64,000 nt of DNA from Calothrix sp. NIES-2100. Its GTDB lineage: Bacteria; Cyanobacteriota; Cyanobacteriia; Cyanobacteriales; Nostocaceae. The position numbers and the translations under genes are program-made. Within the stretch, counting starts at the first letter, position 1. Each line of letters opens with the position of its first letter. The stretch covers positions 5,081,286 through 5,145,285 of the forward strand of contig AP018178.1 of the NCBI GenBank assembly GCA_002368195.1, in the 5' to 3' direction. Under the pieces are notes generated by a model that was not told where the DNA came from, did no database searches, and saw only the letters and a program-made list of their open reading frames with translations. This document shows positions 4,168-14,282 of this stretch, in pieces.

Positions 4168-5244
4168 ATGGTGAAGTCCCTGGAAACGCCGGAGCCTCAG
4201 ATACTGAAGCCAGGTATTAAAGCACCTGTGCAGGAAACATTATTAACACCCCGGTTTTATACTACTGACTTCGACGCGATGGAGAAGTTAGATATTTCCG
4301 CCAATGAGGCTGAGTTATTAGCAATTGTTGAGGAGTTAAGGGCTGATTATAACCGCCATCATTTTGTGCGTGATGATGAATTTAAACAATGTTGGGATCA
4401 CATTGATGGCGAAACGCGGCGTTCGTTTATTGACTTTTTAGAACGTTCTTGTACTTCAGAGTTCTCTGGGTTTTTATTGTTTAAAGAATTGTCGCGCCGC
4501 CTGAAAGAAAAGAACCCAATTTTGGCAGAAGCTTTTCAATTAATGGCAAGAGATGAAGCACGCCATGCAGGTTTTCTCAATAAATCAATGGCTGATTTTA
4601 ATCTTTCCTTAGATTTAAGCTATTTGACCAAAAGTCGTACCTATACATTTTTCCCGCCAGAGTGGATTATTTACACAGTCTACCTATCGGAGAAAATAGG
4701 GTACTGGCGCTATATTTTAATGTATCGCCATTTGCAGAAAAATCCCCAATATCAATTCTATCCCCTCTTCCGAAAATTTGAAAGTTGGTGCCAGGATGAG
4801 AATCGACATGGAGATTTCTTTAAAGCATTGCTCAGGTCACAACCAAAATTATGGAAGAATTGGAAAGCGCGGTTGTGGGTGCGGTTCTTCCTGCTGACGG
4901 TGTTTGTCACCCATACAATTACAGTATTTGAACGCGCCAGTTTCTATGAATCTATTGGCATACATCCGCGCCATTATAATAACAGAGTCATTCAAGAGAC
5001 AAATAACACCGCCGCCAGAGCATTCCCCATCATTTTAGATACCAATCACCCGGCATTTTTCTGGCGATTAGAGCAGTGTTACCAAAATAATCAGAAATTG
5101 GCAGAGATTAACAAGAGCGATCGCTCTAATTTTGTCAAGTTCTGGCTAAAAGTACCAGCGATTACCGCAATTATCTGGCACATGTTGCGGATTTATCTGG
5201 TTAAACCAATTAACGCGGAGTTGACACGGGAAACAGTTCTGTGA
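4168..5244 (+). CDS. acsF: Mg-protoporphyrin IX monomethyl ester oxidative cyclase (aerobic cyclase, diiron)
   Basis: Two E-x-x-H diiron motifs ('DEARHAGF', 'DENRHGDF'). The ~358-aa length and overall composition are typical of AcsF/ChlA/CHL27. Confidence 0.85.
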   Translation: MVKSLETPEPQILKPGIKAPVQETLLTPRFYTTDFDAMEKLDISANEAELLAIVEELRADYNRHHFVRDDEFKQCWDHIDGETRRSFIDFLERSCTSEFSGFLLFKELSRRLKEKNPILAEAFQLMARDEARHAGFLNKSMADFNLSLDLSYLTKSRTYTFFPPEWIIYTVYLSEKIGYWRYILMYRHLQKNPQYQFYPLFRKFESWCQDENRHGDFFKALLRSQPKLWKNWKARLWVRFFLLTVFVTHTITVFERASFYESIGIHPRHYNNRVIQETNNTAARAFPIILDTNHPAFFWRLEQCYQNNQKLAEINKSDRSNFVKFWLKVPAITAIIWHMLRIYLVKPINAELTRETVL

Positions 5245-5330
5245 ACAAAGCAGGAAGCAGAAGAACTTTGACAATGTTACTAACGCCCATTGGTGTCAAC
5301 TTAAGTTAAAAGGCTTATCCCACAAGCGTT

Positions 5331-5405
5331 TTACCCCTCCCCTTAATCCCCTCCCCGTAAACGGGGAGGGGACGTTTTGGCTTTAGACAAAACTGGGGTG
5401 GGGTA
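5331..5405. repeat. Dispersed hairpin repeat (CCCCTTAATCCCCTCCCCGTAAACGGGGAGGGG core with outer GGGGTGGGG inverted repeats)
   Basis: A perfect inverted repeat is visible. A related copy lies at 22609-22683, and a degenerate in-ORF copy at 6400-6545. Confidence 0.8.
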
Positions 5406-5666
5406 ACGCGGATCGTGATGGTAGGCAATTTGATTCTAAATAACGTCTTGGCAAGGGTTTCGCGTTAAGTTGACACCTATGACTAGCGCCGTGCGCCTAC
5501 CGTGTAATCTTTCGCAATTACTAATTACTAGTCTGCCAGGGTTGAAATGAGGGACAGTAGTGTGAGCGTCTCGCTCACGCGGGCAAGATGCCCGCACTAC
5601 CAAAAACCCCTCAAAACAAAATTGACAGACTAAGTAGCTCAACCTAAATAAATATCATATGCTTTT

Positions 5667-5799
5667 GTCATTGCGTAAAGCCTTCTCTACGAGACGCTGC
5701 GCGAACGGCATAGCTTCGCTTAACGCGCAGCGTCTCGAAGAGAGGAACGAAGCAATCCCAGTCCACAGCGATTGCTTCGTCGTTCCTCCTCGCAATGAC
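5667..5799. repeat. Nested inverted-repeat element (about 130 bp, MITE-like)
   Basis: Outer inverted repeat gtcattgcg/cgcaatgac. Inner inverted repeats tctctacgagacgctgcgcg/cgcgcagcgtctcgaagaga and aggaacgaagcaatc/gattgcttcgtcgttcct. A related motif 'tctctgcgagacgctccgcgaacg' occurs at 47005-47170. Confidence 0.7.
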
Positions 5800-5829
5800 A
5801 TCTGACGTTTAATTATGTTGACCTACTTA

Positions 5830-6072
5830 TTACCTTTTCACCTTTGGCTTGCTGTCCTCCTTTTTCGGCGTTTTTTCCTCTAAGCTTTTGACTTTGACCA
5901 ATACTGGAATATATTGTTGAATCAACCATGTTAAAGTCTCAAGAGTTGAGTTACCTTGGTCAATACGGGTTTTGGCTTGTAAGCCAATTAGGAATAGTTG
6001 CATTGCCAGTAACAAAGCAATAGTTTTACCCAGAATATCTTGGCGTTGGCGTTTCATGTGTTTGCCCCTCAA
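5830..6072 (-). CDS. Small Lys-rich hypothetical protein (80 aa) with one predicted TM helix
   Basis: ORF only, no recognisable domain. It is divergent from the NB-ARC gene. Confidence 0.25.
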   Translation of the reverse strand: MRGKHMKRQRQDILGKTIALLLAMQLFLIGLQAKTRIDQGNSTLETLTWLIQQYIPVLVKVKSLEEKTPKKEDSKPKVKR

Positions 6073-6225
6073 AGAGTTGGTAGCTAAAGCATCTCTTTGG
6101 GGTTGTGTCCCTAAGCAAATACCCCAAACTCAGGGAAAATGCTTTAAAATCAGGATTCAATAAGCTTGGGGTAGTAGTTTTAAATTGGGGTAGCCCTCAA
6201 CTTTCTGGTCGATTTTGGCAATGCA

Positions 6226-9200
6226 ATGGCGCGAGAATCTAGTAAAGGCCCTGTAATTCAAAAGCGAGTTAAGCGTCTGTTAGAGGCGTTGCTTTGTTTT
6301 GCAGATGGGGAAGTTGAGGAAGATAAGTTTAAGATTAAGTACCGCTGGACAGAAGAAGACAGCGCTAACCCCAAGCTGACTATTGAAACAACGCTGGTAA
6401 GGTTGGAGGCGTTGACTGGTGCAGTCCGGAACCCCACCCCTAACCCCTCCTCCGAAGTTTGCTCAACGGGGGGAACCCCCGCACGCAACTTCTCTCCGCA
6501 AGCGAGGAGGGGAAAAGATGATGGGGGGGAGAAGTTAACTAAAGCGCAAATTCGAGAAGCGCTGAATTTACTGAAGGATTTTGTGAAAATTCTGGAAGAT
6601 AACCGGATTCATACCCAGGGTTCTGATGACTGGCACTTTACTTTAAAGCTATGGTCAAGGGATAAAGAAAAGAACCTGAAACGGTTTGATGAGGTATGGG
6701 AAAGCAACAAACCAAAGAAATCTAAAGAACTAGAAGCTAATTACACTGAAGATGAGGGTGTTGCTGTTGTACCCCAAACTAAGCTGGCAATATTTCAAGC
6801 GCCACCTTTACCTGCACACTTTGTTGAACGCCCAGAATACAGCGATGAATTAAAGACGCGCTTCCTCACAGAAGATAATCGCACTTTGGTAATTACGGCG
6901 ATTCACGGTTTGGGTTCTGTGGGTAAATCGACCTTAGCCGCAGCTTTAGCAGTAGATGCAGAAGTACAAACGCGGTTTTGTGATGGGATTTTGTGGGCTA
7001 CATTAGGTCAAAAGCCTGATGTGCTGTCTTTAATTAGTGGCTGGGTGCAAGCGTTAGGAGACTATAGCTTTAAACCTACCAGTGTAGAAGCTACTTCTAC
7101 TCATTTACGGACGCTGCTTTATGACAAAGCTGTGTTGTTAGTGGTTGATGATGCATGGAATACGCAAGATGCACAAGCGTTTAATGTGGGTGGGGTGCGG
7201 TGTCAGGTTTTAGTCACAACTCGTGAAGGGGCAATTGCCGAAGCCTTAGCAGCTAGCACGTACAGCCTGGATATCATGAAACCAAGTCAGGCTATGGCAT
7301 TGCTGACGAAGAAATTAAGACGCGAAATTACAGGTGCAGAACGTCAGTCAGCCGAAAATTTAGCTCAAGGCGTTGGTTATCTCCCCCTAGCCTTGGAACT
7401 TGCAGCCGCCGAAGTTGCTAGTGGTACAACTTGGGATGAATTATTGGCGGATATTCGGCAAGAGGTAGCGAGATTAACAAGTTTTGACAGACCGGAAGCG
7501 GAAGAAATTACCGATGAGGCGAGTTTAAAACGCCTGAGTTTAACGGCATCATTAAATTTGAGTGTCAAGCGAATGCCTCAAGAAAAGCAGCAGCATTTTG
7601 CTCGGTTAGGGGTGTTGCCGGAGGATGTCAACATTAATAAGATGATGGCAGGGACGCTGTGGGGAATGGGTGAGCGTGATGCTGCTAAGATGTTGCAATA
7701 TTTACGGAATAAGGCATTGCTATTAACAGGAGTACCCCTTGCTGATGGTACGCCTACCTATCGGTTACATGACTTATTCCATGATTTAGCCTGTAATTTG
7801 TTAACTGCTGCGCCACAGCCAAAGCGGATAGGAGATTTGCCAGGGTTAGGTTTACAACTTGTTGATGCTCACGCTGCTTTTTTGGAGAAATATCGGCAGA
7901 AAATACACAAGAATTTATGGCATACCTTGCCTAATGATGGTTACATTCATCAGCATTTAGTTTGGCATTTGGAGAAAGCGGGACGAGTTGAAGAGATTCA
8001 CTCTTTATTGCGGGAAGAGTCGGCAACTGGTAACAATGGCTGGTATGAAGCACGAGAAAAATTAGCACAAACTGGGGGTTACATTACAGATATATCTCGT
8101 GCTTGGGAATTAGCAGAAGCGAATTGGAATGAATCAACTACGCCGCAAGTGGTGGGTTGGCAATGTCGCTATGCTTTGATTACGGCATCTCTTAATAGTT
8201 TGGCAGCTAATGTACCAATAGAACTGCTGGTTGCGTTGGTCAAAAATAATCTGTGGACTGCTGAACAAGGACTAGCTTACGCTTTGCAAAACCCTGAACC
8301 AAAGCAGAAAGTTGATGCCTTTGCACAACTAGCCAACTATTTGCCGCCAAATTTAGAAAGACTAGCACTGTCAGAAGCACTCGTTACTGCTAGGGCGATT
8401 CATGATGAGTCTGATCGCGCCTCTGCCCTCAGTGTCTTAGCCGACAAACTACCACAAGAGTTGTTGCCAGAAGCACTCAGTGCTGCCAAGTCGATTCAGG
8501 ATGAGTATTCTCGTGCCCTAGCCCTCAGTTCCCTAGCAGAAAAACTGCCAGAGGTATTGCCAGAAGCTCTCAGTGCCGCCAGGGTGATTCAAGATGAGTA
8601 TTCTCGCGCCTTAGCCCTCAGTTCCCTAGCAGAAAAACTGCCAGAGGTATTGCCAGAAGCTCTCAGTGCCGCCAGGGTGATTCAAGATGAGTATTCTTGG
8701 GCACAAGCCCTAAGAGCCTTAGCTAAAAAACTGCCACCAGAATTATTGACAGAAATACTCAGTGCCGCCACATCGATTCAGGATGGGTTTTCTCGCGCCA
8801 ATGCCCTCAGTGCCTTAGCAGAAAAACTGCCACCAGAATTATTGCCAGAAGCACTCGCTGCCGTCAGGCCGATTCAGGATGAGTATTATCGTGCCAATGC
8901 CCTCAGTGCCTTAGCAGAAAAACTGCCACCAGAGTTATTGCCAGAAGCACTCAAAGCCGCCAGGGCGATTCAGGATGAATATTCTCGCGCCTTAGCCCTC
9001 AGTGCCTTAGTAGAAAAACTGCCACAAGAATTATTGCCAGAAGCGCTCGCTGCCGCCAGGGCGATTCAGGATGAGTATTCTCGCGCCTTAGCCCTCAGTG
9101 CCTTAGTAGAAAAACTGCCACAAGAATTATTGCCAGAAGCACTCGCTGCCGCTAGGGCGATTCAGGATAAAAAATATAGTGCTGATGTCCTCAGTGCCCT

Positions 9201-9780
9201 AGCAGAAAAACTGCCAGAAATATTGCCAGAAGCACTCGCTGCCGCTAGGGCGATTCAGGATGAGTCATATCGCGCCTTAACCCTCAGTACCTTAGCAGAA
9301 AAACTGCCAGAGTTATTGCCAGAAGCACTCGCTGCCACTAGGCCGATTCTGAATAAGGAATATCGCGCCTCTGCCCTCAGTGCCTTAGTAGAAAAACTGC
9401 CACCAGAGTTGTTGCCAGAAGCGCTCGCTGCCGCCAGGGCGATTCAGGATGAGTATTTTCGCGCCTTAGCCCTCAGTGCCTTAGCCGATAAACTGCCACC
9501 AGAGTTGTTGCCAGAAGCACTCGCTGCAGTCAGGCCGATTCAGGATGAGTATTATCGCTCCTCTGCCCTCAGTGCCTTAGCTTTGGGGCTGTCACAAATG
9601 CTGAATGCTAAACTTTTCCCTCTGTGGCAAGATACACTTAATGAGTTATCTGCTCGCACTCGTCCCCATTTGCTGCGAGATATCAAAGCATTGTTTCCAG
9701 TTATATTTGCATTAGGTGGCAAAGTTGCAACAGCAGAAGTTGCCCGTGCAATTATGGATGTAGGGCGATGGTGGAAATAA
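6226..9780 (+). CDS. STAND-class NTPase (NB-ARC domain) with a C-terminal array of about 19 ~32-33-aa alpha-helical repeats
   Basis: P-loop 'GLGSVGKSTLA', Walker B 'LLVVDDAWN', 'VLVTTRE', and the GxP motif 'GYLPLALE' together define NB-ARC. From about 8400 to 9590 the DNA is a tandem ~96-99-bp repeat encoding 'LPxELLPEALAAARAIQDEYSRALALSALAEK'. The N-terminal ~225 aa are unassigned and contain a low-complexity insertion. Confidence 0.85.
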   Translation: MARESSKGPVIQKRVKRLLEALLCFADGEVEEDKFKIKYRWTEEDSANPKLTIETTLVRLEALTGAVRNPTPNPSSEVCSTGGTPARNFSPQARRGKDDGGEKLTKAQIREALNLLKDFVKILEDNRIHTQGSDDWHFTLKLWSRDKEKNLKRFDEVWESNKPKKSKELEANYTEDEGVAVVPQTKLAIFQAPPLPAHFVERPEYSDELKTRFLTEDNRTLVITAIHGLGSVGKSTLAAALAVDAEVQTRFCDGILWATLGQKPDVLSLISGWVQALGDYSFKPTSVEATSTHLRTLLYDKAVLLVVDDAWNTQDAQAFNVGGVRCQVLVTTREGAIAEALAASTYSLDIMKPSQAMALLTKKLRREITGAERQSAENLAQGVGYLPLALELAAAEVASGTTWDELLADIRQEVARLTSFDRPEAEEITDEASLKRLSLTASLNLSVKRMPQEKQQHFARLGVLPEDVNINKMMAGTLWGMGERDAAKMLQYLRNKALLLTGVPLADGTPTYRLHDLFHDLACNLLTAAPQPKRIGDLPGLGLQLVDAHAAFLEKYRQKIHKNLWHTLPNDGYIHQHLVWHLEKAGRVEEIHSLLREESATGNNGWYEAREKLAQTGGYITDISRAWELAEANWNESTTPQVVGWQCRYALITASLNSLAANVPIELLVALVKNNLWTAEQGLAYALQNPEPKQKVDAFAQLANYLPPNLERLALSEALVTARAIHDESDRASALSVLADKLPQELLPEALSAAKSIQDEYSRALALSSLAEKLPEVLPEALSAARVIQDEYSRALALSSLAEKLPEVLPEALSAARVIQDEYSWAQALRALAKKLPPELLTEILSAATSIQDGFSRANALSALAEKLPPELLPEALAAVRPIQDEYYRANALSALAEKLPPELLPEALKAARAIQDEYSRALALSALVEKLPQELLPEALAAARAIQDEYSRALALSALVEKLPQELLPEALAAARAIQDKKYSADVLSALAEKLPEILPEALAAARAIQDESYRALTLSTLAEKLPELLPEALAATRPILNKEYRASALSALVEKLPPELLPEALAAARAIQDEYFRALALSALADKLPPELLPEALAAVRPIQDEYYRSSALSALALGLSQMLNAKLFPLWQDTLNELSARTRPHLLRDIKALFPVIFALGGKVATAEVARAIMDVGRWWK
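8400..9590 (+). repeat. Intragenic tandem repeat (about 96-99 bp x about 19) inside the NB-ARC gene
   Basis: Near-identical DNA units are visible, for example 'gattcaggatgagtattctcgcgccttagccctcagt...ctgccagaagc'. Confidence 0.9.
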
Positions 9781-9950
9781 TTTGTAATTCGTAGTACCAT
9801 CCGGGAAGCGCAAAGCGCTACGTAATTCGTAATTTACACCTCAAAAGTATGGAGTGCGATCGCCTTCCTAGCCTCAAAAGTATGGAGTGCGATCGCTGCT
9901 CGACAAAATGCGATCGCGGTTCACTACTCCAGAAAATGCGATCGCTCAAC

Positions 9951-10319
9951 CTATTCTTCAATCCAAGTACTTAAAAATACCACCTGATTCTGCATTTCTG
10001 CTGCTGACTTAGCTGCAATTAACCTCAAAATCCCGCGCATTAATTCGCCCACTGAGTAACGTTGCTGTTGTACTAAAATCATTCCAGCATGGGATTGTTC
10101 TTCGCTCAAAAATTTACTGTGTAAACGGTAGAAATCCCTAATATTAGCACTATATAAAACTAGACCTTGCTCTGTTGCCCATCTCAGTTGTTCTTCATCG
10201 GTATAGCCCAGTCTATTAACACTTAAACTTGTGATTACATCTACACCACGATTTTGTAGAGCCATAACTAAAGAATGTGCCGTAGAATCTTCATCCATGT
10301 ACAATCGAATTTGGCTCAT
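9951..10319 (-). CDS. DUF5615-family PIN-like protein (putative toxin of a DUF433/DUF5615 pair)
   Basis: 122 aa. It starts 4 bp inside the stop of the upstream DUF433 gene (ATGA overlap). The composition is typical of Mut7-C/PIN-like DUF5615 proteins. Confidence 0.6.
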   Translation of the reverse strand: MSQIRLYMDEDSTAHSLVMALQNRGVDVITSLSVNRLGYTDEEQLRWATEQGLVLYSANIRDFYRLHSKFLSEEQSHAGMILVQQQRYSVGELMRGILRLIAAKSAAEMQNQVVFLSTWIEE

Positions 10320-10609
10320 GAAAGTTTTTGAGTCTGATGCAGTTTTTCTAATCTCTCAGCTTCGGCTGCTTCGGCTGCAATATCAGCATCAATTTCTTCA
10401 CGGTTCGCATGATAATAAGCTAAAGCTGCATAAACCTGGGCTAAATTTAGATGATTAATTTGCTCGGCAATTTCTTCTGCACTGTAACCTTGTTTATACC
10501 AAATAGCTATACGCCGGACTGTCACCCCTGTACCAGCAATAATCGGGCAACCTCCGTGTACTTCAGGATTATGATTAATTAGTGTGCCGATATCGGTAAT
10601 AGTTGCCAA
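10316..10609 (-). CDS. DUF433-domain protein (putative antitoxin partner)
   Basis: 97 aa. The 'GGCPIIAGTGVTVRRI' core matches DUF433, and translational coupling to the downstream gene is a hallmark of this TA-like pair. Confidence 0.6.
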   Translation of the reverse strand: MATITDIGTLINHNPEVHGGCPIIAGTGVTVRRIAIWYKQGYSAEEIAEQINHLNLAQVYAALAYYHANREEIDADIAAEAAEAERLEKLHQTQKLS

Positions 10610-10820
10610 AACTTATTCTCCCCATTATTTCACGCTCAATATCATTATTACAAAGTTAGTATTCCAGAAAATGCGATCGCTTCTCGACAAAATGCGATCG
10701 CTTATCACTCAGAGGCGATCGCTTAACCTTGTAAGATTCGCACTCCATCTCTTCGCTGCGATTTTTACCACCAAGCGATGCAGCATCTACACAAAATCAG
10801 CTTTCTTTACCAAAATCACC

Positions 10821-11050
10821 TCATCCATAGAGAACCTCATCGCATTCATGACCAACCAGATCGGGTTGTTTATCAATGAGTACTCATCCATAGAGAAGGC
10901 GATCGCATTCATGACCAACGCGATCGGGTTGTCTATCAACGAGTACTCATCCATAGAGAAGGCGATCGCATTCACAACCAACGAGATCGGGTTGTCTATC
11001 AATGAGTACTCATTCATACAGAACCAGATCTCATTCACAACCAACGAGTT
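10821..11050. repeat. Tandem ~60-bp repeat x4, each unit carrying HIP1
   Basis: Unit: catccatagagaaggcgatcgcattcatgaccaacgcgatcgggttgtctatcaacgagtact. Both strands translate into repetitive ORFs, which makes it unlikely to be coding. Confidence 0.8.
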
Positions 11051-11327
11051 AATTTTCTGCGCCAAAAGGCTGCACCAGGTGATGGGATATGGCGCTGCTC
11101 CAAGTTGGGGAACTCCAAGGAGCGATCGCTATTGATTACGCATAATTACAGAATTATATCCCCAAAATATTGTTAAAAAAAGCCAAATATTTGTGATTTT
11201 CCCTGAGCCGGAAGACTGCTGTTTTAAGACAAGCTAACAGTAGTACTGCGAAGCGGAGTTCAAAATTCAAAATAAAGTTGATTTTTTTACGCCGTGCTGT
11301 CCGAGAAAAGTTCATGAGGAGTAATCT

Positions 11328-11738
11328 ATGACTCTACCCAAACGTTCATCTCGCATTCTCGAAAAAGCTCAACAGAGAGTTTCTGGAATGCAAACTATCG
11401 ATGCAAATCTTGATTTTGGTGATTCTAATAGCTTGCACAACATGCTACAACAAATTGAGCAATTACGCAACAAGCTCAACACCCACAACAATGCTCTGTC
11501 TGTAATTGATGCTTCTAGAACTGATATTGAACAGCTAGAAAAAAGCTTGAGCGTTTTGTGTGAAAATATGCTGATGTCAGTTGCAGGCAAATACGGCAAA
11601 GACAGCGCGGAATATGTCAAGGCTGGTGGTGTGCGTAAAAGCGATCGCATTCGCAAAGGTACTAAAACTCGGATAAAAACTGGTGCAGAGCAAGCGGCTG
11701 TTAAGTCTGATCCAACTACTAGTAGTCCACCACATTAA
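11328..11738 (+). CDS. Hypothetical protein (136 aa), coiled-coil/basic C-terminus
   Basis: GAGGAG Shine-Dalgarno 7 bp upstream of the ATG, and a terminator hairpin downstream. No recognisable domain. Confidence 0.5.
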   Translation: MTLPKRSSRILEKAQQRVSGMQTIDANLDFGDSNSLHNMLQQIEQLRNKLNTHNNALSVIDASRTDIEQLEKSLSVLCENMLMSVAGKYGKDSAEYVKAGGVRKSDRIRKGTKTRIKTGAEQAAVKSDPTTSSPPH

Positions 11739-11760
11739 TTCTGATAGGTGAAGTTGGTTA

Positions 11761-11791
11761 GATCCCCGACTTCTTGGAGAAGTCGGGGATC
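11761..11791. terminator. Perfect 13-bp-stem hairpin between convergent genes (putative bidirectional terminator)
   Basis: gatccccgacttc ttgga gaagtcggggatc. There is no strong U-tract. Confidence 0.45.
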
Positions 11792-11807
11792 TAGCATAAG
11801 AGCAAAG

Positions 11808-14282
11808 TTATCCAACAGTGGGAGTCATTACTTTATCTCCAAAGCTTTGACTTCCTTGCATATACTCCTCTAAACTAAAGGAATCTACTTGAATCGCATC
11901 ATTACGGGCAAACTCTGCTTCACATATAAGTTCAACGTCTTTCTCGCTAATTACCCCAGCTTTCAAGGCTGCGGAAATTAACTCATCGGGTTTTAGGTGT
12001 GGTAGTTTCCCCGCATGGCTAGCATTTTTGATAGTTTTGATGATTGGTTCAGCTTGGGATAACAAGGTGAAAGCTTTTTCCAAGCGTCCCAATGCTTCAT
12101 TGCTGCTGCGGGGAATATGAATACCTGCGGTGAGGCGATCGCGTATTTCTCCTGGAGTTTGTAATTTATGCGCAACTTCAGCACCAAGTTTGTCATCAGG
12201 TAATGAACCAATGGGATTAAGTCGCCACCACCAAGTCAAGAAATTACCTAATACTGGCACAAATAAATTCTGGAAAATCCCCTCAAACGCTAACTGCATC
12301 TGCGCAAAAGCATATTGCATCGCCCAATGCACAAAAGGTAAGTCTTCGGGTTTTCGTCCTTCGGCTTCAAAACGGCGCAGAGTAGCAGTTGCTAGGTACA
12401 TCCAGGTGAGAATATCCGCAAACCTTCCTGTCAGTTTCTCCCGTCGCTTCAAGGTTCCACCGAAGGAGAACATCGCAATATCAGTTAGTAAGGCAAAGGT
12501 AGCCGCAGCCCATTGTAATTTGCGGTAATATTTAGCTGTCGCACCTGACACTGGTGAAGCTGCTAAATTCCCACGGGTAAGATAAAGAAGTTTGGCGCGG
12601 AAACCATTACGCACCGTCAACCCTAAATGATGCCAAAAAGCGCGATCAAAAGCAGTCACATCTGATTGACTTAGGGCTGTAATTTCCTGATAGACGTAAG
12701 GATGACAGCGAATCGCCCCTTGTCCAAAAATCATCAAGGTACGGGTGAGAATATTTGCACCTTCTACGGTAATGGAAATTGGAGTGGCTGTATAAATATT
12801 TGCCAATAAATTTCTGGGGCCTCGGCAAATTCCCGCACCGCCCATAATGTCCATACCGTCGTTGATGATTTTACGGGATAATTCTGTCAAACTGTATTTG
12901 GCGATCGCCGAAATTACCGCAGGTTGTTCGCCTTGATCTACCGCACCGCAGGTATAAGTTCGCGCTGCTTCCATTAAGTAGGTTAAACCGCCAATTCTCG
13001 CTAAAGGTTCTTCTACACCTTCAAACCGACCAATCGCTAAACCAAATTGTTGTCGTACCACAGCATGGGCGCTGGTAACTCTCGCTACTAACTTCGCCAC
13101 GCCCGTACAACTAGCCGGGAAGCTAATTCCCCTACCTGCGGCTAGGCTTTGCATCAACATTTTCCAGCCATTACCAGCCTGTTCCACACCGCCGATAATT
13201 TGCTCAACAGGGATAATAACGTTATGTCCTTCTGTAGGAGAATTGTAAAAAGGTACACCCATTGGGTCATGCCTTCTACCCATAATTACGCCCGGTGTGT
13301 CGGTGGGGATTAAAACGCAGGTAATGCCAACTTCTTTACCTTTGCCTAAGTAATTTTCCGGGTCGCGTAATTTAAAAGCTAGTCCTAAAAGAGAGGCGAT
13401 CGCAGCTAAAGTAATATATCGTTTCTTCCAATTCAACCGCAGATAAAGCTTACCATCTTCACCTCTAAATACCGTTCCTTCTGACTTAATACTAGCTGCA
13501 TCTGACCCAGCCGTCGGTTCTGTCAGCGCAAAACAAGGAATTTCCTCACCCCTGGCGAGGCGGGGTAGGTAATAATTTTTCTGTTCCTCTGTTCCATAGC
13601 GGAGTAATAATTTTGCGGGGCCTAATGAATTTGTTACGCCAACAGTCGCCACATGGGTAAAAGAACGCGATGCTAACTTAGTCATCACATTGCTGTAGGC
13701 GAAATTAGAAAATCCCAAACCGCCATACTCTTGAGGAATCATCATTCCTAAAAAGCGTTCTTGTTTGAGATAGTCCCAAACTTCAGGCGGTAAATCCTTG
13801 CGGCGGTAAATTTCCCAATCACTCACCATGCGACAAACTTGTTCAACGGGACCATCAAGAAAGGCTTGCAATTCTGGTGTAACTAGAGGATATGGTTCTT
13901 GATTAATTCTGTGAAAATTTGGTTTACCTGAGAAGAATTCCCCATCTACCCAAACATTACCCGCTTCAATAGCTGCGCGTTCGGTATCAGAGATTTTGGG
14001 TAATAAATTAAAAGCTTTAATGGCTTTGATTAATGGTGATGTGATGATATTTTGGCGGATAATTGGGATATTGAAAATAAGAGCGATCGCACCAAAAATC
14101 ACCCAAGTCCAAATAGGGGCGTGAACAGTTACTAGTAATGCTGCGAAATATAGCGACCAAACCCATAAAGGAACGCCGATGTAACCAAGAAACAGTATGA
14201 ATAAAATAGACGCGGCGACGCGGAGACTGAGGGACGCGGTGATTATTTGTAAGTAGTTTTGTGAAAAAAAGGAAGTAATCAT
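11808..14282 (-). CDS. fadE: Acyl-CoA dehydrogenase, long membrane-anchored FadE type
   Basis: 824 aa. The N-terminal TM helices are followed by 'SDTERAAIEAGNVWVDGEFFSGKPNF', which resembles the E. coli FadE N-terminal region. The C-terminal part has an acyl-CoA dehydrogenase fold. Confidence 0.75.
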   Translation of the reverse strand: MITSFFSQNYLQIITASLSLRVAASILFILFLGYIGVPLWVWSLYFAALLVTVHAPIWTWVIFGAIALIFNIPIIRQNIITSPLIKAIKAFNLLPKISDTERAAIEAGNVWVDGEFFSGKPNFHRINQEPYPLVTPELQAFLDGPVEQVCRMVSDWEIYRRKDLPPEVWDYLKQERFLGMMIPQEYGGLGFSNFAYSNVMTKLASRSFTHVATVGVTNSLGPAKLLLRYGTEEQKNYYLPRLARGEEIPCFALTEPTAGSDAASIKSEGTVFRGEDGKLYLRLNWKKRYITLAAIASLLGLAFKLRDPENYLGKGKEVGITCVLIPTDTPGVIMGRRHDPMGVPFYNSPTEGHNVIIPVEQIIGGVEQAGNGWKMLMQSLAAGRGISFPASCTGVAKLVARVTSAHAVVRQQFGLAIGRFEGVEEPLARIGGLTYLMEAARTYTCGAVDQGEQPAVISAIAKYSLTELSRKIINDGMDIMGGAGICRGPRNLLANIYTATPISITVEGANILTRTLMIFGQGAIRCHPYVYQEITALSQSDVTAFDRAFWHHLGLTVRNGFRAKLLYLTRGNLAASPVSGATAKYYRKLQWAAATFALLTDIAMFSFGGTLKRREKLTGRFADILTWMYLATATLRRFEAEGRKPEDLPFVHWAMQYAFAQMQLAFEGIFQNLFVPVLGNFLTWWWRLNPIGSLPDDKLGAEVAHKLQTPGEIRDRLTAGIHIPRSSNEALGRLEKAFTLLSQAEPIIKTIKNASHAGKLPHLKPDELISAALKAGVISEKDVELICEAEFARNDAIQVDSFSLEEYMQGSQSFGDKVMTPTVG

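What the first reader, a model, noticed from the sequence alone, without database searches (positions are those of the whole stretch)
6226..11135. STAND/NB-ARC NTPase with a novel ~32-aa repeat sensor, adjacent to a repeat-flanked DUF433/DUF5615 TA pair: candidate defence/conflict island
The 1184-aa protein has a clear NB-ARC core (P-loop, hhhhDD, GxP). It is flanked by an unassigned ~225-aa N-terminal domain and, C-terminally, by about 19 nearly identical 32-33-aa units (LPxELLPEALAAARAIQDEYSRALALSALAEK). These units do not match TPR (34 aa), WD40, ankyrin or canonical HEAT spacing. STAND NTPases with C-terminal repeat sensors and N-terminal effectors are the architecture of Avs/NLR-like antiphage proteins. 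A DUF433/DUF5615 toxin-antitoxin-like pair with a 4-bp overlap sits immediately downstream, bounded by direct repeats, and a 60-bp tandem array follows. Together this looks like an accessory conflict locus rather than housekeeping signalling.
Basis: partly seen in the sequence, partly recalled or inferred. Interest (0 to 1): 0.7.

Follow-up and report, generated by a model that had tools for sequence, protein, structure and literature searches.

The report
EAD4–NB-ARC–HEAT-like NLR islet in Calothrix
This is an intact NLR-like "STAND" ATPase of a type already catalogued by computer analysis in filamentous cyanobacteria, carried on a ~6-kb accessory islet with a toxin-antitoxin pair and two small unstudied companion genes; it is probably an immune or conflict sensor, but nobody has tested one.

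Summary
The 1184-aa ORF (6226-9780) is real and intact, from Calothrix sp. NIES-2100. Its N-terminus is not unassigned: it is Pfam EAD4 (E=2e-36), a published adaptor domain of prokaryotic conflict systems, and it models as a winged helix. Next come a complete NB-ARC/WHD core and 13 (not about 19) units of 31-32 aa. These units model confidently as a short HEAT-like solenoid, closest in sequence to alphaRep/PBS-type repeats.

Very similar NB-ARC/solenoid bodies elsewhere carry TIR, CHAT, caspase, trypsin or EAD1 in place of EAD4. Unit number runs from 7 to 29, and variation sits on one helix face.

The locus behaves as an islet. It is present between acsF and fadE in three close relatives, that site is empty in Nostoc sp. 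106C, and homologues occupy at least five other contexts, including a mobilizable plasmid.

- A conserved 75-aa membrane-type gene lies divergently upstream.
- A conserved 136-aa gene lies downstream.
- The DUF433/DUF5615 TA pair recurs at the same spot in three independent loci.
- No second EAD4 gene lies nearby.

Verdict: a new member of a known, untested kind. A defence role is plausible but not shown.

The parts
5249..11807 (.). Variable islet between the acsF stop codon and the fadE stop codon (6.56 kb)
   Evidence: In Nostoc sp. 106C (L060), similarity to the window stops at 5248 and resumes at 11808, with only 206 unrelated nt between. Similarity to the non-syntenic NIES-2098 locus L001 spans 5830-11724.
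5830..6072 (-). orf75: small protein (75 aa counted from Met6 of the 80-aa ORF) with one TM-like hydrophobic segment and a Lys-rich tail; transcribed divergently from the STAND gene
   Evidence: It is 89% identical next to the STAND homologue in the unrelated context L001 and 97.5% identical in L007. Nucleotide differences by codon position are [2,5,18]. It has 76 homologues, all in Nostocales. 24 of them share a draft contig with a STAND or EAD4 homologue listed, and 5 of those pairs have consecutive locus tags. Adjacency was verified in L086, L087, L088 and L090. There is no Pfam or PHROG match.
6073..6225 (.). 153-nt divergent intergenic region between orf75 and the STAND gene
   Evidence: It is conserved together with the module: 89-96% identity in L001, L006 and L007. 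No function was tested.
6226..9780 (+). STAND NTPase gene, 1184 aa: EAD4, NB-ARC, WHD/helical region, 13 HEAT-like units, C-terminal cap
   Evidence: It is 100% identical to P0001 of Calothrix sp. NIES-2100.
6247..6702 (+). EAD4 adaptor domain (aa 8-159), modelled as a winged-helix-like alpha+beta fold
6424..6540 (+). Strain-specific in-frame insertion of about 39 aa inside EAD4; the DNA forms a strong hairpin
   Evidence: It is absent from all 21 aligned EAD4 homologues and from the L006 orthologue sequence, and the nucleotide alignments to L001, L086 and L087 all break between 6416 and 6532. It folds at -46.9 kcal/mol over 116 nt, and fragments of it occur in other loci. It is disordered in the model.
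6844..7440 (+). NB-ARC nucleotide-binding domain (aa 207-405) with Walker A, Walker B, sensor-1 TTR and GxP motifs
   Evidence: Pfam PF00931, E=1e-19.
7441..8340 (+). Winged-helix and helical (HD2-like) region with an LHD motif, then two or three degenerate pre-repeat helices
   Evidence: APAF1_C PF17908 covers aa 546-595 at E=1.5e-5, and there is a weak APAF-1-like WHD hit. LHD lies at aa 514-516. The model is helical.
8341..9588 (+). 13 tandem units of 31-36 aa (aa 706-1121) forming a short HEAT-like alpha-solenoid; the presumed ligand sensor
   Evidence: TRF finds a 96-nt period x 12.7 copies. Unit list. The AF2 model has pLDDT 88.5 and paired 12-residue helices. Foldseek matches PP2A-A (TM about 0.5), karyopherins and CAND1. 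phmmer matches alphaRep at E=0.002. Hypervariable positions are 20, 21, 24, 27/28, 31 and 11, 15, 17.
9589..9780 (+). Conserved C-terminal helical cap (aa 1122-1184) and stop codon
   Evidence: It is 73-83% identical in close relatives whatever the repeat number, including the CHAT- and TIR-headed proteins. It is helical in the model.
9839..9953 (.). HIP1-rich short direct repeats; left border of the TA cassette
   Evidence: Repeat families D2-D4. The L006 alignment breaks at 9950/9951.
9951..10319 (-). DUF5615 protein (122 aa), putative PIN-like toxin
   Evidence: Pfam PF18480, E=4.9e-12. It is 86-87% identical to the copies next to the STAND homologues in L087 and L088.
10316..10609 (-). DUF433 protein (97 aa), putative antitoxin; its stop codon overlaps the toxin's start codon by 4 bp
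   Evidence: Pfam PF04255, E=9e-19. The overlap is ATGA. DUF433/COG2442 antitoxins paired with PIN-like toxins are described in PMC5499597 and PMC4963859.
10660..10730 (.). Right-border direct repeats of the TA cassette
   Evidence: TATTCCAGAAAATGCGATCGCT at 10660-10681 against TACTCCAGAAAATGCGATCGCT at 9925-9946. L006 holds a single copy at the junction.
10820..11048 (.). 63-nt x 3.6 tandem array with internal inverted repeats, upstream of orf136
   Evidence: It is conserved with the module in L006 (about 90%) and L001 (88%). L090 has a different tandem array at the same position.
11328..11738 (+). orf136: 136-aa protein of unknown function, on the same strand as the STAND gene
   Evidence: Homologues lie downstream of STAND homologues in L006 (95% aa), L001 (80% aa), L087 (55% aa), L088 (79% nt) and L090 (69% nt). 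There is no significant Pfam, NCBIfam, PHROG or PADLOC match.

Best explanation
Window 6226-9780 encodes an intact NLR-like STAND NTPase with the architecture EAD4 adaptor, NB-ARC, WHD/helical region, short HEAT-like solenoid and C-terminal cap. It belongs to a large, paralogue-rich Nostocales family.

Most likely mechanism (inferred, not shown):
1. The solenoid is the sensor. It binds a foreign or danger-associated ligand on the variable face of helix B.
2. Binding releases autoinhibition of the NB-ARC module, which exchanges nucleotide and oligomerises.
3. Oligomerisation clusters the N-terminal EAD4 domains.
4. The clustered EAD4 domains, acting as protein-protein adaptors, engage other EAD4-bearing proteins encoded elsewhere in the genome and so couple sensing to a growth-arrest or cell-death output.

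The gene sits on a ~6-kb accessory islet between housekeeping genes. It travels with a small membrane-type gene (orf75), a 136-aa gene (orf136) and, in some lineages, a DUF433/PIN-like toxin-antitoxin pair. The TA pair most simply acts as an addiction module that stabilises the islet.
For: Shown:
- Domain calls and intact motifs.
- The solenoid fold, with pLDDT 88.5 and HEAT-type structural neighbours.
- The N-terminal slot is interchangeable on very similar bodies. TIR-headed P0017 and P0035 share 85% NB-ARC and 85-89% WHD identity with this protein. CHAT, caspase, trypsin and EAD1 heads also occur.
- Repeat number is 13, 18 and 29 in the three syntenic orthologues and 7-29 overall. Entropy peaks at unit positions 20, 21, 24, 27/28 and 31, which lie on one helix face, against an invariant framework.
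- EAD4 evolves faster than the NTPase core and out of step with it. Against the syntenic orthologues, EAD4 is about 70% identical and NB-ARC 93-95%. Against the in-genome paralogue P0006, EAD4 is 83% identical. Against the plasmid copy, EAD4 is 56% and NB-ARC 94%. This fits the published observation that EADs of one genome resemble each other (PMC7159879).
- Islet behaviour: an empty site, multiple genomic contexts and a plasmid copy.
- Family-wide HIP1 depletion: 7 sites against about 45 expected.
- The EAD4 helix-plus-wing segment is neutral to acidic, which fits a protein-binding domain and not a DNA-binding one.

From the literature:
- EAD4 is proposed to be a homotypic adaptor that recruits effectors (PMC7159879 and PMC8195603).
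Against: - No second EAD4 gene lies in the 64-kb window or within 8-10 kb of seven homologous loci.
- In 83 + 10 EAD4 representatives, the partners seen were NTPases, VMAP, TPR or WD40. No enzymatic effector was seen, although only the 25 commonest families of the census were visible.
- No PADLOC or PHROG model matches, and there is no phage-borne homologue.
- No member of this clade has been tested experimentally, as far as the searched literature shows.
- This copy has a 39-aa insertion in EAD4 that could impair it.
- The ligand, the oligomerisation and the output are all inferred.
Confidence: 0.6

Rival explanations
1. The protein is a STAND-type transcriptional regulator, as in the MalT or AfsR logic. 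The N-terminal winged-helix EAD4 binds DNA once ligand has driven oligomerisation, and it controls the linked genes orf75 (divergent) and/or orf136.
For: - The divergent small gene and the 153-nt intergenic region are conserved with the STAND gene across contexts.
- No EAD4 partner is encoded nearby.
- GenBank calls the protein a 'regulatory protein'.
- There is a sub-threshold NCBIfam AfsR match.
Against: - The helix-plus-wing segment has a net charge of about -1 (range -6 to +2), which is unlike DNA-binding winged helices.
- The AfsR match covers only the NB-ARC region and scores 95 bits against a cut-off of 1430.
- On near-identical bodies, the same slot carries TIR, CHAT or caspase.
- EAD4 also heads VMAP proteins and NTPase-less TPR/WD40 proteins.
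- The plasmid copy has neither orf75 nor orf136.
Confidence: 0.12
2. It is the same molecular machine, but its biological role is not antiphage. It would instead serve self/non-self recognition or regulated cell death within or between filaments, analogous to fungal heterokaryon-incompatibility NLRs.
For: - The family is restricted to filamentous, multicellular cyanobacteria, mostly Nostocales, with many paralogues per genome.
- Highly conserved internal repeats, copy-number variation and hypervariable surface positions mirror fungal NLRs (the papers listed, PMC4986451 and PMC13449251, judged from their abstracts only).
- Kaur et al. link these systems to multicellularity.
- There are no matches to phage-defence HMM libraries.
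Against: No direct evidence either way. Characterised bacterial STANDs with this layout sense phage proteins (PMC13581612). The plasmid carriage and islet behaviour are typical of defence genes.
Confidence: 0.15
3. This particular copy is a decaying, non-functional member. The in-frame hairpin element inserted into EAD4 has crippled the adaptor, and the repeat array has contracted.
For: - The 39-aa insertion is unique to this strain and disordered in the model.
- This copy has the fewest repeats among the three syntenic orthologues: 13 against 18 and 29.
- orf75 is truncated in the sister locus L006, so decay does occur at this site.
Against: - The reading frame is open over 1184 codons and every NTPase motif is intact.
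- The insertion lies in a loop between helices of the winged helix, and the core is still modelled at pLDDT 74-88.
- Relatives with only 7 units exist.
Confidence: 0.08
4. The DUF433/DUF5615 pair is a working part of the STAND system, for example its executioner nuclease, and not an independent addiction module.
For: - The same cassette (86-90% nt identity) sits convergently, directly after the STAND stop codon, in three unrelated genomic contexts: the window, L087 and L088.
- Its identity tracks STAND identity.
- In 1.53 Mb of fetched loci it was found nowhere else.
Against: - It is absent from 5 of 8 chromosomal loci and from the plasmid copy.
- It is a clean indel between direct repeats relative to L006, and it is missing from L090, which is syntenic with L087.
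- It carries no EAD4.
- It has its own promoter-like site.
- TA modules commonly stabilise islands (PMC4963859).
Confidence: 0.15

Closest known systems
EAD-coupled NTP-dependent conflict systems of multicellular prokaryotes (Kaur, Burroughs, Iyer, Aravind; eLife 2020 PMC7159879 and 2021 PMC8195603), in particular EAD4+AP-ATPase(NB-ARC)+repeat proteins
   Same: - There is an N-terminal EAD4. The 2021 supplement records EAD4 at the N-terminus in 18 of 18 architectures.
- There is a STAND/AP-ATPase core and a C-terminal superstructure-forming repeat.
- The host is a cyanobacterium.
- EAD4 copies within one genome resemble each other.
   Different: - The published examples carry beta-propeller, TPR or TRADD-N partners. 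Here the sensor is a 32-aa HEAT-like array.
- No adjacent EAD4-effector gene and no vWA-MoxR-VMAP core lies nearby.
- The orf75, orf136 and TA companions are not mentioned in the passages read.
Avs / bacterial NLR-like antiviral STAND proteins (PADLOC Avs models; PMC13581612)
   Same: The three-part layout is the same: an N-terminal output module, a STAND NTPase and a C-terminal helical-repeat sensor. The N-terminal modules are swapped on a conserved body, and the genes are carried on islands or plasmids.
   Different: - No PADLOC model matches.
- The N-terminus is an adaptor, not an enzyme.
- The NTPase is of the NB-ARC/Apaf-1 type.
- No phage trigger is known.
Apaf-1 / CED-4 apoptosome
   Same: It has an NB-ARC domain with an APAF1_C helical-domain hit. 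A non-enzymatic N-terminal adaptor is presumed to recruit the executioner after oligomerisation, and a repeat sensor sits at the C-terminus.
   Different: The adaptor is a winged-helix-like EAD4 and not a CARD/Death fold (in the 2021 supplement, EAD4 matches only itself in profile-profile searches). The sensor is a HEAT-like solenoid and not WD40.
Fungal NLRs with highly conserved internal repeats (PMC4986451, PMC13449251)
   Same: Tandem units are 72-93% identical at the DNA level. Copy number varies strongly between orthologues. Variation is focused on a few surface positions.
   Different: The repeat type differs (fungi use WD40, ANK or TPR), and so does the kingdom. No positive-selection test was run here.
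PBS-lyase-type (E/Z) HEAT-like repeats and the alphaRep scaffold derived from them
   Same: - The period is 31-32 aa.
- Each unit is two 12-residue helices.
- The fold is an alpha-solenoid.
- The best sequence matches in the PDB are alphaRep proteins (E=0.002) and 31-residue designed toroids.
- Variability sits on helix B, as in alphaRep libraries (this last point is from my own knowledge, not checked here).
   Different: This protein matches no Pfam HEAT, HEAT_2 or HEAT_PBS model, even at E<=10. Only 2 of its 120 listed homologues carry a precomputed HEAT_2 hit. The consensus, LPxELLPEALAAARAIQDEYxRAxALSALAEK, is distinct.
DUF433 (COG2442) antitoxin with a PIN-like Mut7-C-group toxin: type II TA systems (PMC5499597, PMC4963859, PMC2701414)
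   Same: There are two small overlapping genes with the antitoxin first, Pfam DUF433 and DUF5615 hits above threshold, and a cyanobacterial host in which such pairs are common.
   Different: The equivalence of DUF5615 with COG4634/PIN_10 was not tested here. This particular subfamily recurs next to one STAND family.

Membership tests
STAND NTPase, NB-ARC (AP-ATPase) clade | Pfam NB-ARC match above the gathering score | tested here: met
   PF00931 at 71.3 bits against a cut-off of 23.5, aa 207-405.
STAND NTPase, NB-ARC (AP-ATPase) clade | Walker A, Walker B hhhhDD, sensor-1 TTR, GxP and an MHD-like motif after the winged helix | tested here: met
   GLGSVGKS 228-235, LLVVDD 304-309, TTR 331-333, GYLPLA 384-389, LHD 514-516. 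APAF1_C helical domain at E=1.5e-5.
STAND NTPase, NB-ARC (AP-ATPase) clade | Nucleotide-dependent oligomerisation | not testable with these tools
   This needs biochemistry.
EAD-coupled conflict systems (Kaur et al.) | An EAD fused to the terminus of a core component | tested here: met
   EAD4 PF19959 at 125.5 bits against a cut-off of 27, at the N-terminus.
EAD-coupled conflict systems (Kaur et al.) | [quoted passage not shown] | tested here: not met
   An EAD4 HMM searched against six-frame translations of the whole window and of seven homologous loci found only the STAND genes themselves.
EAD-coupled conflict systems (Kaur et al.) | [quoted passage not shown] | tested here: inconclusive
   One in-genome paralogue with EAD4 exists (P0006), but it is another STAND.
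EAD-coupled conflict systems (Kaur et al.) | EADs of one genome are closer to each other than to orthologues elsewhere | tested here: met
   EAD4 is 83% identical to the in-genome paralogue and 69-70% identical to the syntenic orthologues, whose NB-ARC domains are 93-95% identical.
Avs antiviral STAND families | Match to a family HMM (PADLOC) | tested here: not met
   No PADLOC family at E<=0.01.
Avs antiviral STAND families | Enzymatic N-terminal effector on the same polypeptide | tested here: not met
   The N-terminus is the non-enzymatic EAD4. Relatives with TIR, CHAT or caspase heads do meet this feature.
Avs antiviral STAND families | Activation by a phage protein, and protection from phage | not testable with these tools
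   This needs experiments.
HEAT-like alpha-solenoid repeats | Helix-turn-helix units stacked into a solenoid | tested here: met
   The AF2 model has pLDDT 88.5. Foldseek matches PP2A-A, importin-beta and CAND1 at probability 1.00 and TM up to 0.54.
HEAT-like alpha-solenoid repeats | Sequence-profile match to a HEAT family | tested here: not met
   No Pfam HEAT model at E<=10 on the repeat region. There are only weak alphaRep matches in the PDB, at E=0.002.
DUF433/PIN-like type II toxin-antitoxin | Two adjacent small genes, antitoxin first, both with family matches | tested here: met
   DUF433 at 67.5 bits against 23.6 and DUF5615 at 46.1 bits against 23.8, with a 4-bp overlap.
DUF433/PIN-like type II toxin-antitoxin | Toxicity of the second gene, neutralised by the first | not testable with these tools
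   This needs experiments.
AfsR/SARP or MalT-type STAND transcription factors | A recognised DNA-binding domain and a full-length family match | tested here: not met
   NCBIfam AfsR scores 95 bits against a cut-off of 1430 and covers only the NB-ARC region. No SARP, BTAD or LuxR Pfam domain was found.
NLR / small-partner amyloid signalling pairs (Bell/BASS type) | A short motif shared between the NLR N-terminus and the adjacent small protein | tested here: not met
   BLASTP of orf75 and of orf136 against STAND aa 1-230 gave only chance matches (E=4.4 and 7.9). EAD4 starts at residue 8, which leaves no room for an N-terminal motif.

The most novel reading that the evidence does not exclude
In this Nostocales clade the EAD4-STAND does not use an EAD4-enzyme partner. 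It would instead work as a self-contained multi-gene module. The conserved 75-aa membrane protein (orf75) and/or the 136-aa protein (orf136) would be its effector or regulator. The recurrent PIN-like TA cassette would be an optional executioner. That would make it a previously undescribed multi-gene NLR system of filamentous cyanobacteria.
Probability: 0.15. Interest if true: 0.65.

Novelty: new member of a known kind. Interest (0 to 1): 0.42.

Why it matters
EAD-coupled STAND proteins are abundant in multicellular bacteria. They are the proposed prokaryotic counterparts of the apoptosome and of NLR signalling. As far as the searched literature shows, none has been tested.

This locus offers a compact and well-delimited test case:
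- The islet has defined borders and a natural empty site.
- There are natural variants with and without the TA cassette.
- Orthologues carry 13, 18 and 29 sensor repeats.
- Near-identical bodies carry TIR or CHAT in place of EAD4.
- Two conserved companion genes are candidates for the missing output.

Showing what EAD4 binds would test the "EAD principle" directly.

Tried and rejected
- PADLOC, PHROGs and NCBIfam gave no useful family for the STAND protein, orf75 or orf136. The ZorA hit to orf136 (E=0.0027) is coiled-coil noise.
- An Rfam search of 5200-11900 gave only chance hits.
- Promoter and terminator scans were at background level.
- Exact-sequence look-ups of AcsF and DUF433 returned only short read-assembly contigs, and P0003 and P0006 were not on record.
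- The word-indexed search with EAD4 alone reached only 21 proteins, mostly fragments. It was replaced by the full profile search.
- The 2020 paper's supplement held as text contained no EAD4 entries.
- My first regex-based extraction of repeat units mixed two registers. I redid it with a unit HMM.
- The spurious Pfam hits on the repeat region (Nterm_IS4, RhoGAP, DciA, EAD2) have no stretch, or only one, that passes on its own, and I discarded them as summed repeat noise.
- The ORFs 10584..11135 (+) and 10787..11065 (-) run across the tandem array and the HIP1 repeats, and I treat them as artefacts.
- I considered an amyloid-motif pairing with the neighbouring genes and found none.
- I considered DNA binding by EAD4 and think it unlikely on charge grounds.
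- I considered a recent one-off insertion of the TA cassette. It is less likely than co-inheritance with repeated loss, because the same cassette sits at the same position in L087 and L088.

Full report
**1. What is at the coordinates.**

ORF 6226..9780 (+) encodes 1184 aa. It is 100% identical to a protein of Calothrix sp. NIES-2100, from a 9.9-Mb chromosome, annotated 'regulatory protein / NB-ARC domain-containing protein'.

Pfam gives three hits:
- EAD4 (PF19959) at aa 8-159, E=2.2e-36.
- NB-ARC at aa 207-405, E=1e-19.
- The APAF-1 helical domain at aa 546-595, E=1.5e-5.

Every NTPase motif is intact: Walker A at 228-235, LLVVDD at 304-309, TTR at 331-333, GYLPLA at 384-389 and LHD at 514-516.

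Kaur et al. defined the effector-associated domains as small non-catalytic adaptors that couple core components to effectors by homotypic contacts. They describe EAD4 as mixed alpha+beta and as one of the EADs that 'primarily recruit other effectors' (PMC7159879). In their 2021 data EAD4 is N-terminal in 18 of 18 architectures. The examples include EAD4+AP-ATPase+beta-propeller, EAD4+nSTAND1+beta-propeller and EAD4+TRADD-N+STAND (PMC8195603).

**2. The repeats.**

Tandem Repeats Finder reports a 96-nt period with 12.7 copies and 83% matches. At the protein level there are 13 units, at aa 706-1121, with a period of 31-36 aa. That is not about 19. Pairwise unit identity at the DNA level is 72-93%.

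No Pfam repeat model matches, even at E<=10. The hits listed there have no stretch, or only one, that passes on its own, and I treat them as summed repeat noise.

An AlphaFold2 model of aa 640-1184 is confident (pLDDT 88.5) and consists entirely of paired 12-residue helices. Its closest solved folds are HEAT solenoids: the PP2A A subunit (TM about 0.5), karyopherins, CAND1 and SF3B1. By sequence, the best PDB matches are alphaRep proteins (E=0.002) and designed 31-residue toroids. So the unit is a short HEAT-like repeat of the PBS/alphaRep length class with its own consensus. It is not a new fold.

I extracted 404 units from 20 relatives with a unit HMM. The framework positions are nearly invariant. 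Entropy peaks at positions 24, 20, 21, 15, 17, 31, 27/28 and 11, which is mainly an i, i+1, i+4, i+7/8, i+11 stripe along helix B.

Unit number is 13, 18 and 29 in the three syntenic orthologues and 7-29 overall. This pattern is what one expects of a binding surface that diversifies by point change and by unequal recombination. I did not run a selection test.

**3. EAD4.**

A full profile search found 1,355 representative proteins. In 83 of them scanned with Pfam, EAD4 co-occurs with NB-ARC (31), NACHT (19), nSTAND5 (6), AAA_35 (4), TPR and HEAT_2. Ten atypical ones added VMAP, TPR-only and WD40-only partners. I saw no enzymatic effector fused to EAD4, but only the 25 commonest families of the census were visible.

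This strain's EAD4 carries a unique in-frame insertion of about 39 aa. It is absent from all 21 aligned homologues. Its DNA folds into a -46.9 kcal/mol hairpin, and it is disordered in the model.

**4. The family is modular.**

829 proteins match at E<=1e-10. The NB-ARC/solenoid/cap body recurs with alternative N-termini: EAD4 (most), CHAT, TIR_2, EAD1, caspase, trypsin and PP2C.

Domain-wise identities show how recent these swaps are. The TIR-headed proteins P0017 and P0035 share 85% NB-ARC and 85-89% WHD identity with this protein.

EAD4 itself evolves out of step with the core:

| Comparison | EAD4 identity | NB-ARC identity |
|---|---|---|
| Syntenic orthologues (L006, L007) | 69-70% | 93-95% |
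| In-genome paralogue P0006 | 83% | 90% |
| Plasmid copy (L091) | 56% | 94% |

**5. Island behaviour.**

I anchored on the downstream FadE gene and recovered 80 loci. Mapping the window's genes onto them gave the following:
- Tolypothrix sp. FACHB-123 (L006) and Calothrix brevissima NIES-22 (L007) have the STAND gene at the same acsF-fadE site.
- Nostoc sp. 106C (L060) has acsF directly next to fadE.
- Nostoc sp. T09 and Mojavia pulchra have neither the STAND gene nor an intact acsF.

In L060, similarity stops at the acsF stop codon (5248) and resumes at the fadE stop codon (11808). L060 has 206 nt where the window has 6.56 kb.

Close homologues lie in unrelated contexts in Calothrix NIES-2098, Nostoc piscinale, N. 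flagelliforme/UHCC 0302 and Nostoc HK-01. One is on a 37-kb MOBP mobilizable plasmid of Tolypothrix PCC 7601. None is in phages.

The flanks are tetrapyrrole genes (HemN-like, AcsF) and beta-oxidation genes, followed by SOD and PanC-Cmk. This is therefore an isolated islet, not a multi-system defence island.

The STAND genes are also strongly depleted in the cyanobacterial HIP1 octamer. Nine loci hold 7 sites in 37.2 kb, against about 45 expected from their flanks (Poisson P about 2e-12).

**6.

(a) orf75, at 5830..6072 (-).
- It is 89% identical next to the STAND gene in the non-syntenic L001, and DNA similarity between the two loci begins exactly at its stop codon.
- Differences fall at codon positions [2,5,18], so it is coding.
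- It has a TM-like segment and a Lys-rich tail, and no family match.
- All 76 of its homologues are from Nostocales.
- 24 of them share a draft contig with a STAND or EAD4 homologue, 5 of these with consecutive locus tags.
- Four adjacencies were verified directly.

(b) orf136, at 11328..11738 (+).
- It lies downstream of the STAND gene in L006, L001, L087, L088 and L090.

(c) The TA pair.
- Relative to L006, window ~9951-10659 is a clean indel. 22-29 nt are duplicated at its ends, and L006 holds a single copy.
- The same cassette, at 86-90% nt identity, sits convergently right after the STAND stop codon in N. flagelliforme and in Nostoc HK-01.
- Its identity tracks STAND identity.
- In 1.53 Mb of fetched loci it occurs nowhere else.
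- L090, which is syntenic with L087, lacks it.
- Co-inheritance with repeated loss through the flanking repeats is the simplest reading.

DUF433/COG2442 antitoxins paired with PIN-like toxins are a recognised type II family (PMC5499597 and PMC4963859).

The plasmid copy lacks all three companions, so they are frequent but dispensable.

**7. What is missing.**

The 'EAD principle' predicts a second EAD4 fused to an effector, often in the adjacent gene. An EAD4 HMM found no second copy in the 64-kb window or around seven homologous loci. Neither orf75 nor orf136 shares any motif with the STAND N-terminus. I could not scan the rest of the genome.

**8. Mechanism and verdict.**

Shown:
- The architecture and the intact motifs.
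- The solenoid fold.
- Modular exchange of the N-terminal head.
- Focused repeat variability.
- Accessory, mobile behaviour.
- The conserved companion genes.

Inferred:
- Ligand binding on the solenoid.
- NTP-dependent oligomerisation.
- EAD4-mediated recruitment of a downstream effector.
- A defence or cell-death outcome.

The main rivals are these:
- A STAND transcription factor that uses EAD4 as a DNA-binding winged helix.
- A non-antiphage allorecognition or developmental cell-death role.
- Decay of this particular copy.
- A functional, as opposed to a stabilising, role for the TA pair.

The finding is a new member of a computationally known but experimentally untested kind. The modest novelty lies in three things: the 32-aa HEAT-like sensor, the conserved orf75/orf136 companions, and the recurrent TA linkage.

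Noticed in passing
window 6424-6540: An in-frame insertion of about 39 aa in the EAD4 coding region is unique to this strain. Its DNA forms a strong hairpin (-46.9 kcal/mol), and 18-28-nt fragments of it occur in other cyanobacterial loci. It looks like a small dispersed or MITE-like element that landed in a loop without breaking the reading frame.
   Followed up: partly
window 5125-9855, and the STAND genes in L001, L006, L007, L086-L088, L090, L091: The HIP1 octamer GCGATCGC occurs 82 times in the window but not once between 5125 and 9855. Across nine loci the STAND genes hold 7 sites where about 45 are expected (P about 2e-12). The depletion is family-wide. It may reflect mobility, fast turnover or amino-acid composition.
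   Followed up: partly
window 10820-11048; L006 13194-13485; L001 14685-14938; L090 about 1900-2350: A 63-nt tandem array with internal palindromes sits upstream of orf136 and is conserved with the module. L090 has a different tandem array (units of about 21-42 nt) at the same position. The recurrence of some array at this spot is unexplained.
   Followed up: partly
window 6226-6705 compared with 6844-7440: The evolution is mosaic. EAD4 is 56-84% identical to relatives whose NB-ARC is 90-95% identical, and it is closest to the in-genome paralogue and not to the syntenic orthologues. That suggests recombination, gene conversion or diversifying selection on the adaptor.
   Followed up: partly
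window 5245-5830: The ~585 nt between acsF and orf75 is rich in hairpins. One is a terminator-like GGGGAGGGG stem at 5347-5372, and there is a long inverted repeat around 5680-5790. The stretch is only partly conserved in the sister loci, so it is probably a pile-up of small repeat elements at the edge of the islet.
   Followed up: no
L088 2697-3205: In Nostoc sp. HK-01 a second TA pair (an 81-aa gene plus a ParE toxin gene) lies right beside the DUF433/DUF5615 cassette, downstream of the STAND gene. This spot seems to collect TA modules.
   Followed up: no
L009 and L010 (loci anchored on FadE): In Nostoc sp. T09 acsF is absent, and in Mojavia pulchra only a 46-aa remnant is left between fadE and the HemN-like gene. 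So this junction is a rearrangement hotspot even without the STAND islet.
   Followed up: no
window 10584-11135 (+) and 10787-11065 (-): Two ORFs, of 183 and 92 aa, run through the tandem array and the HIP1 repeats. Their repetitive translations indicate that they are artefacts of the repeat and not genes.
   Followed up: partly
L006 17830-17961: The orf75 homologue in Tolypothrix sp. FACHB-123 matches over only 44 aa, so it is truncated, although the STAND gene beside it is intact.
   Followed up: no
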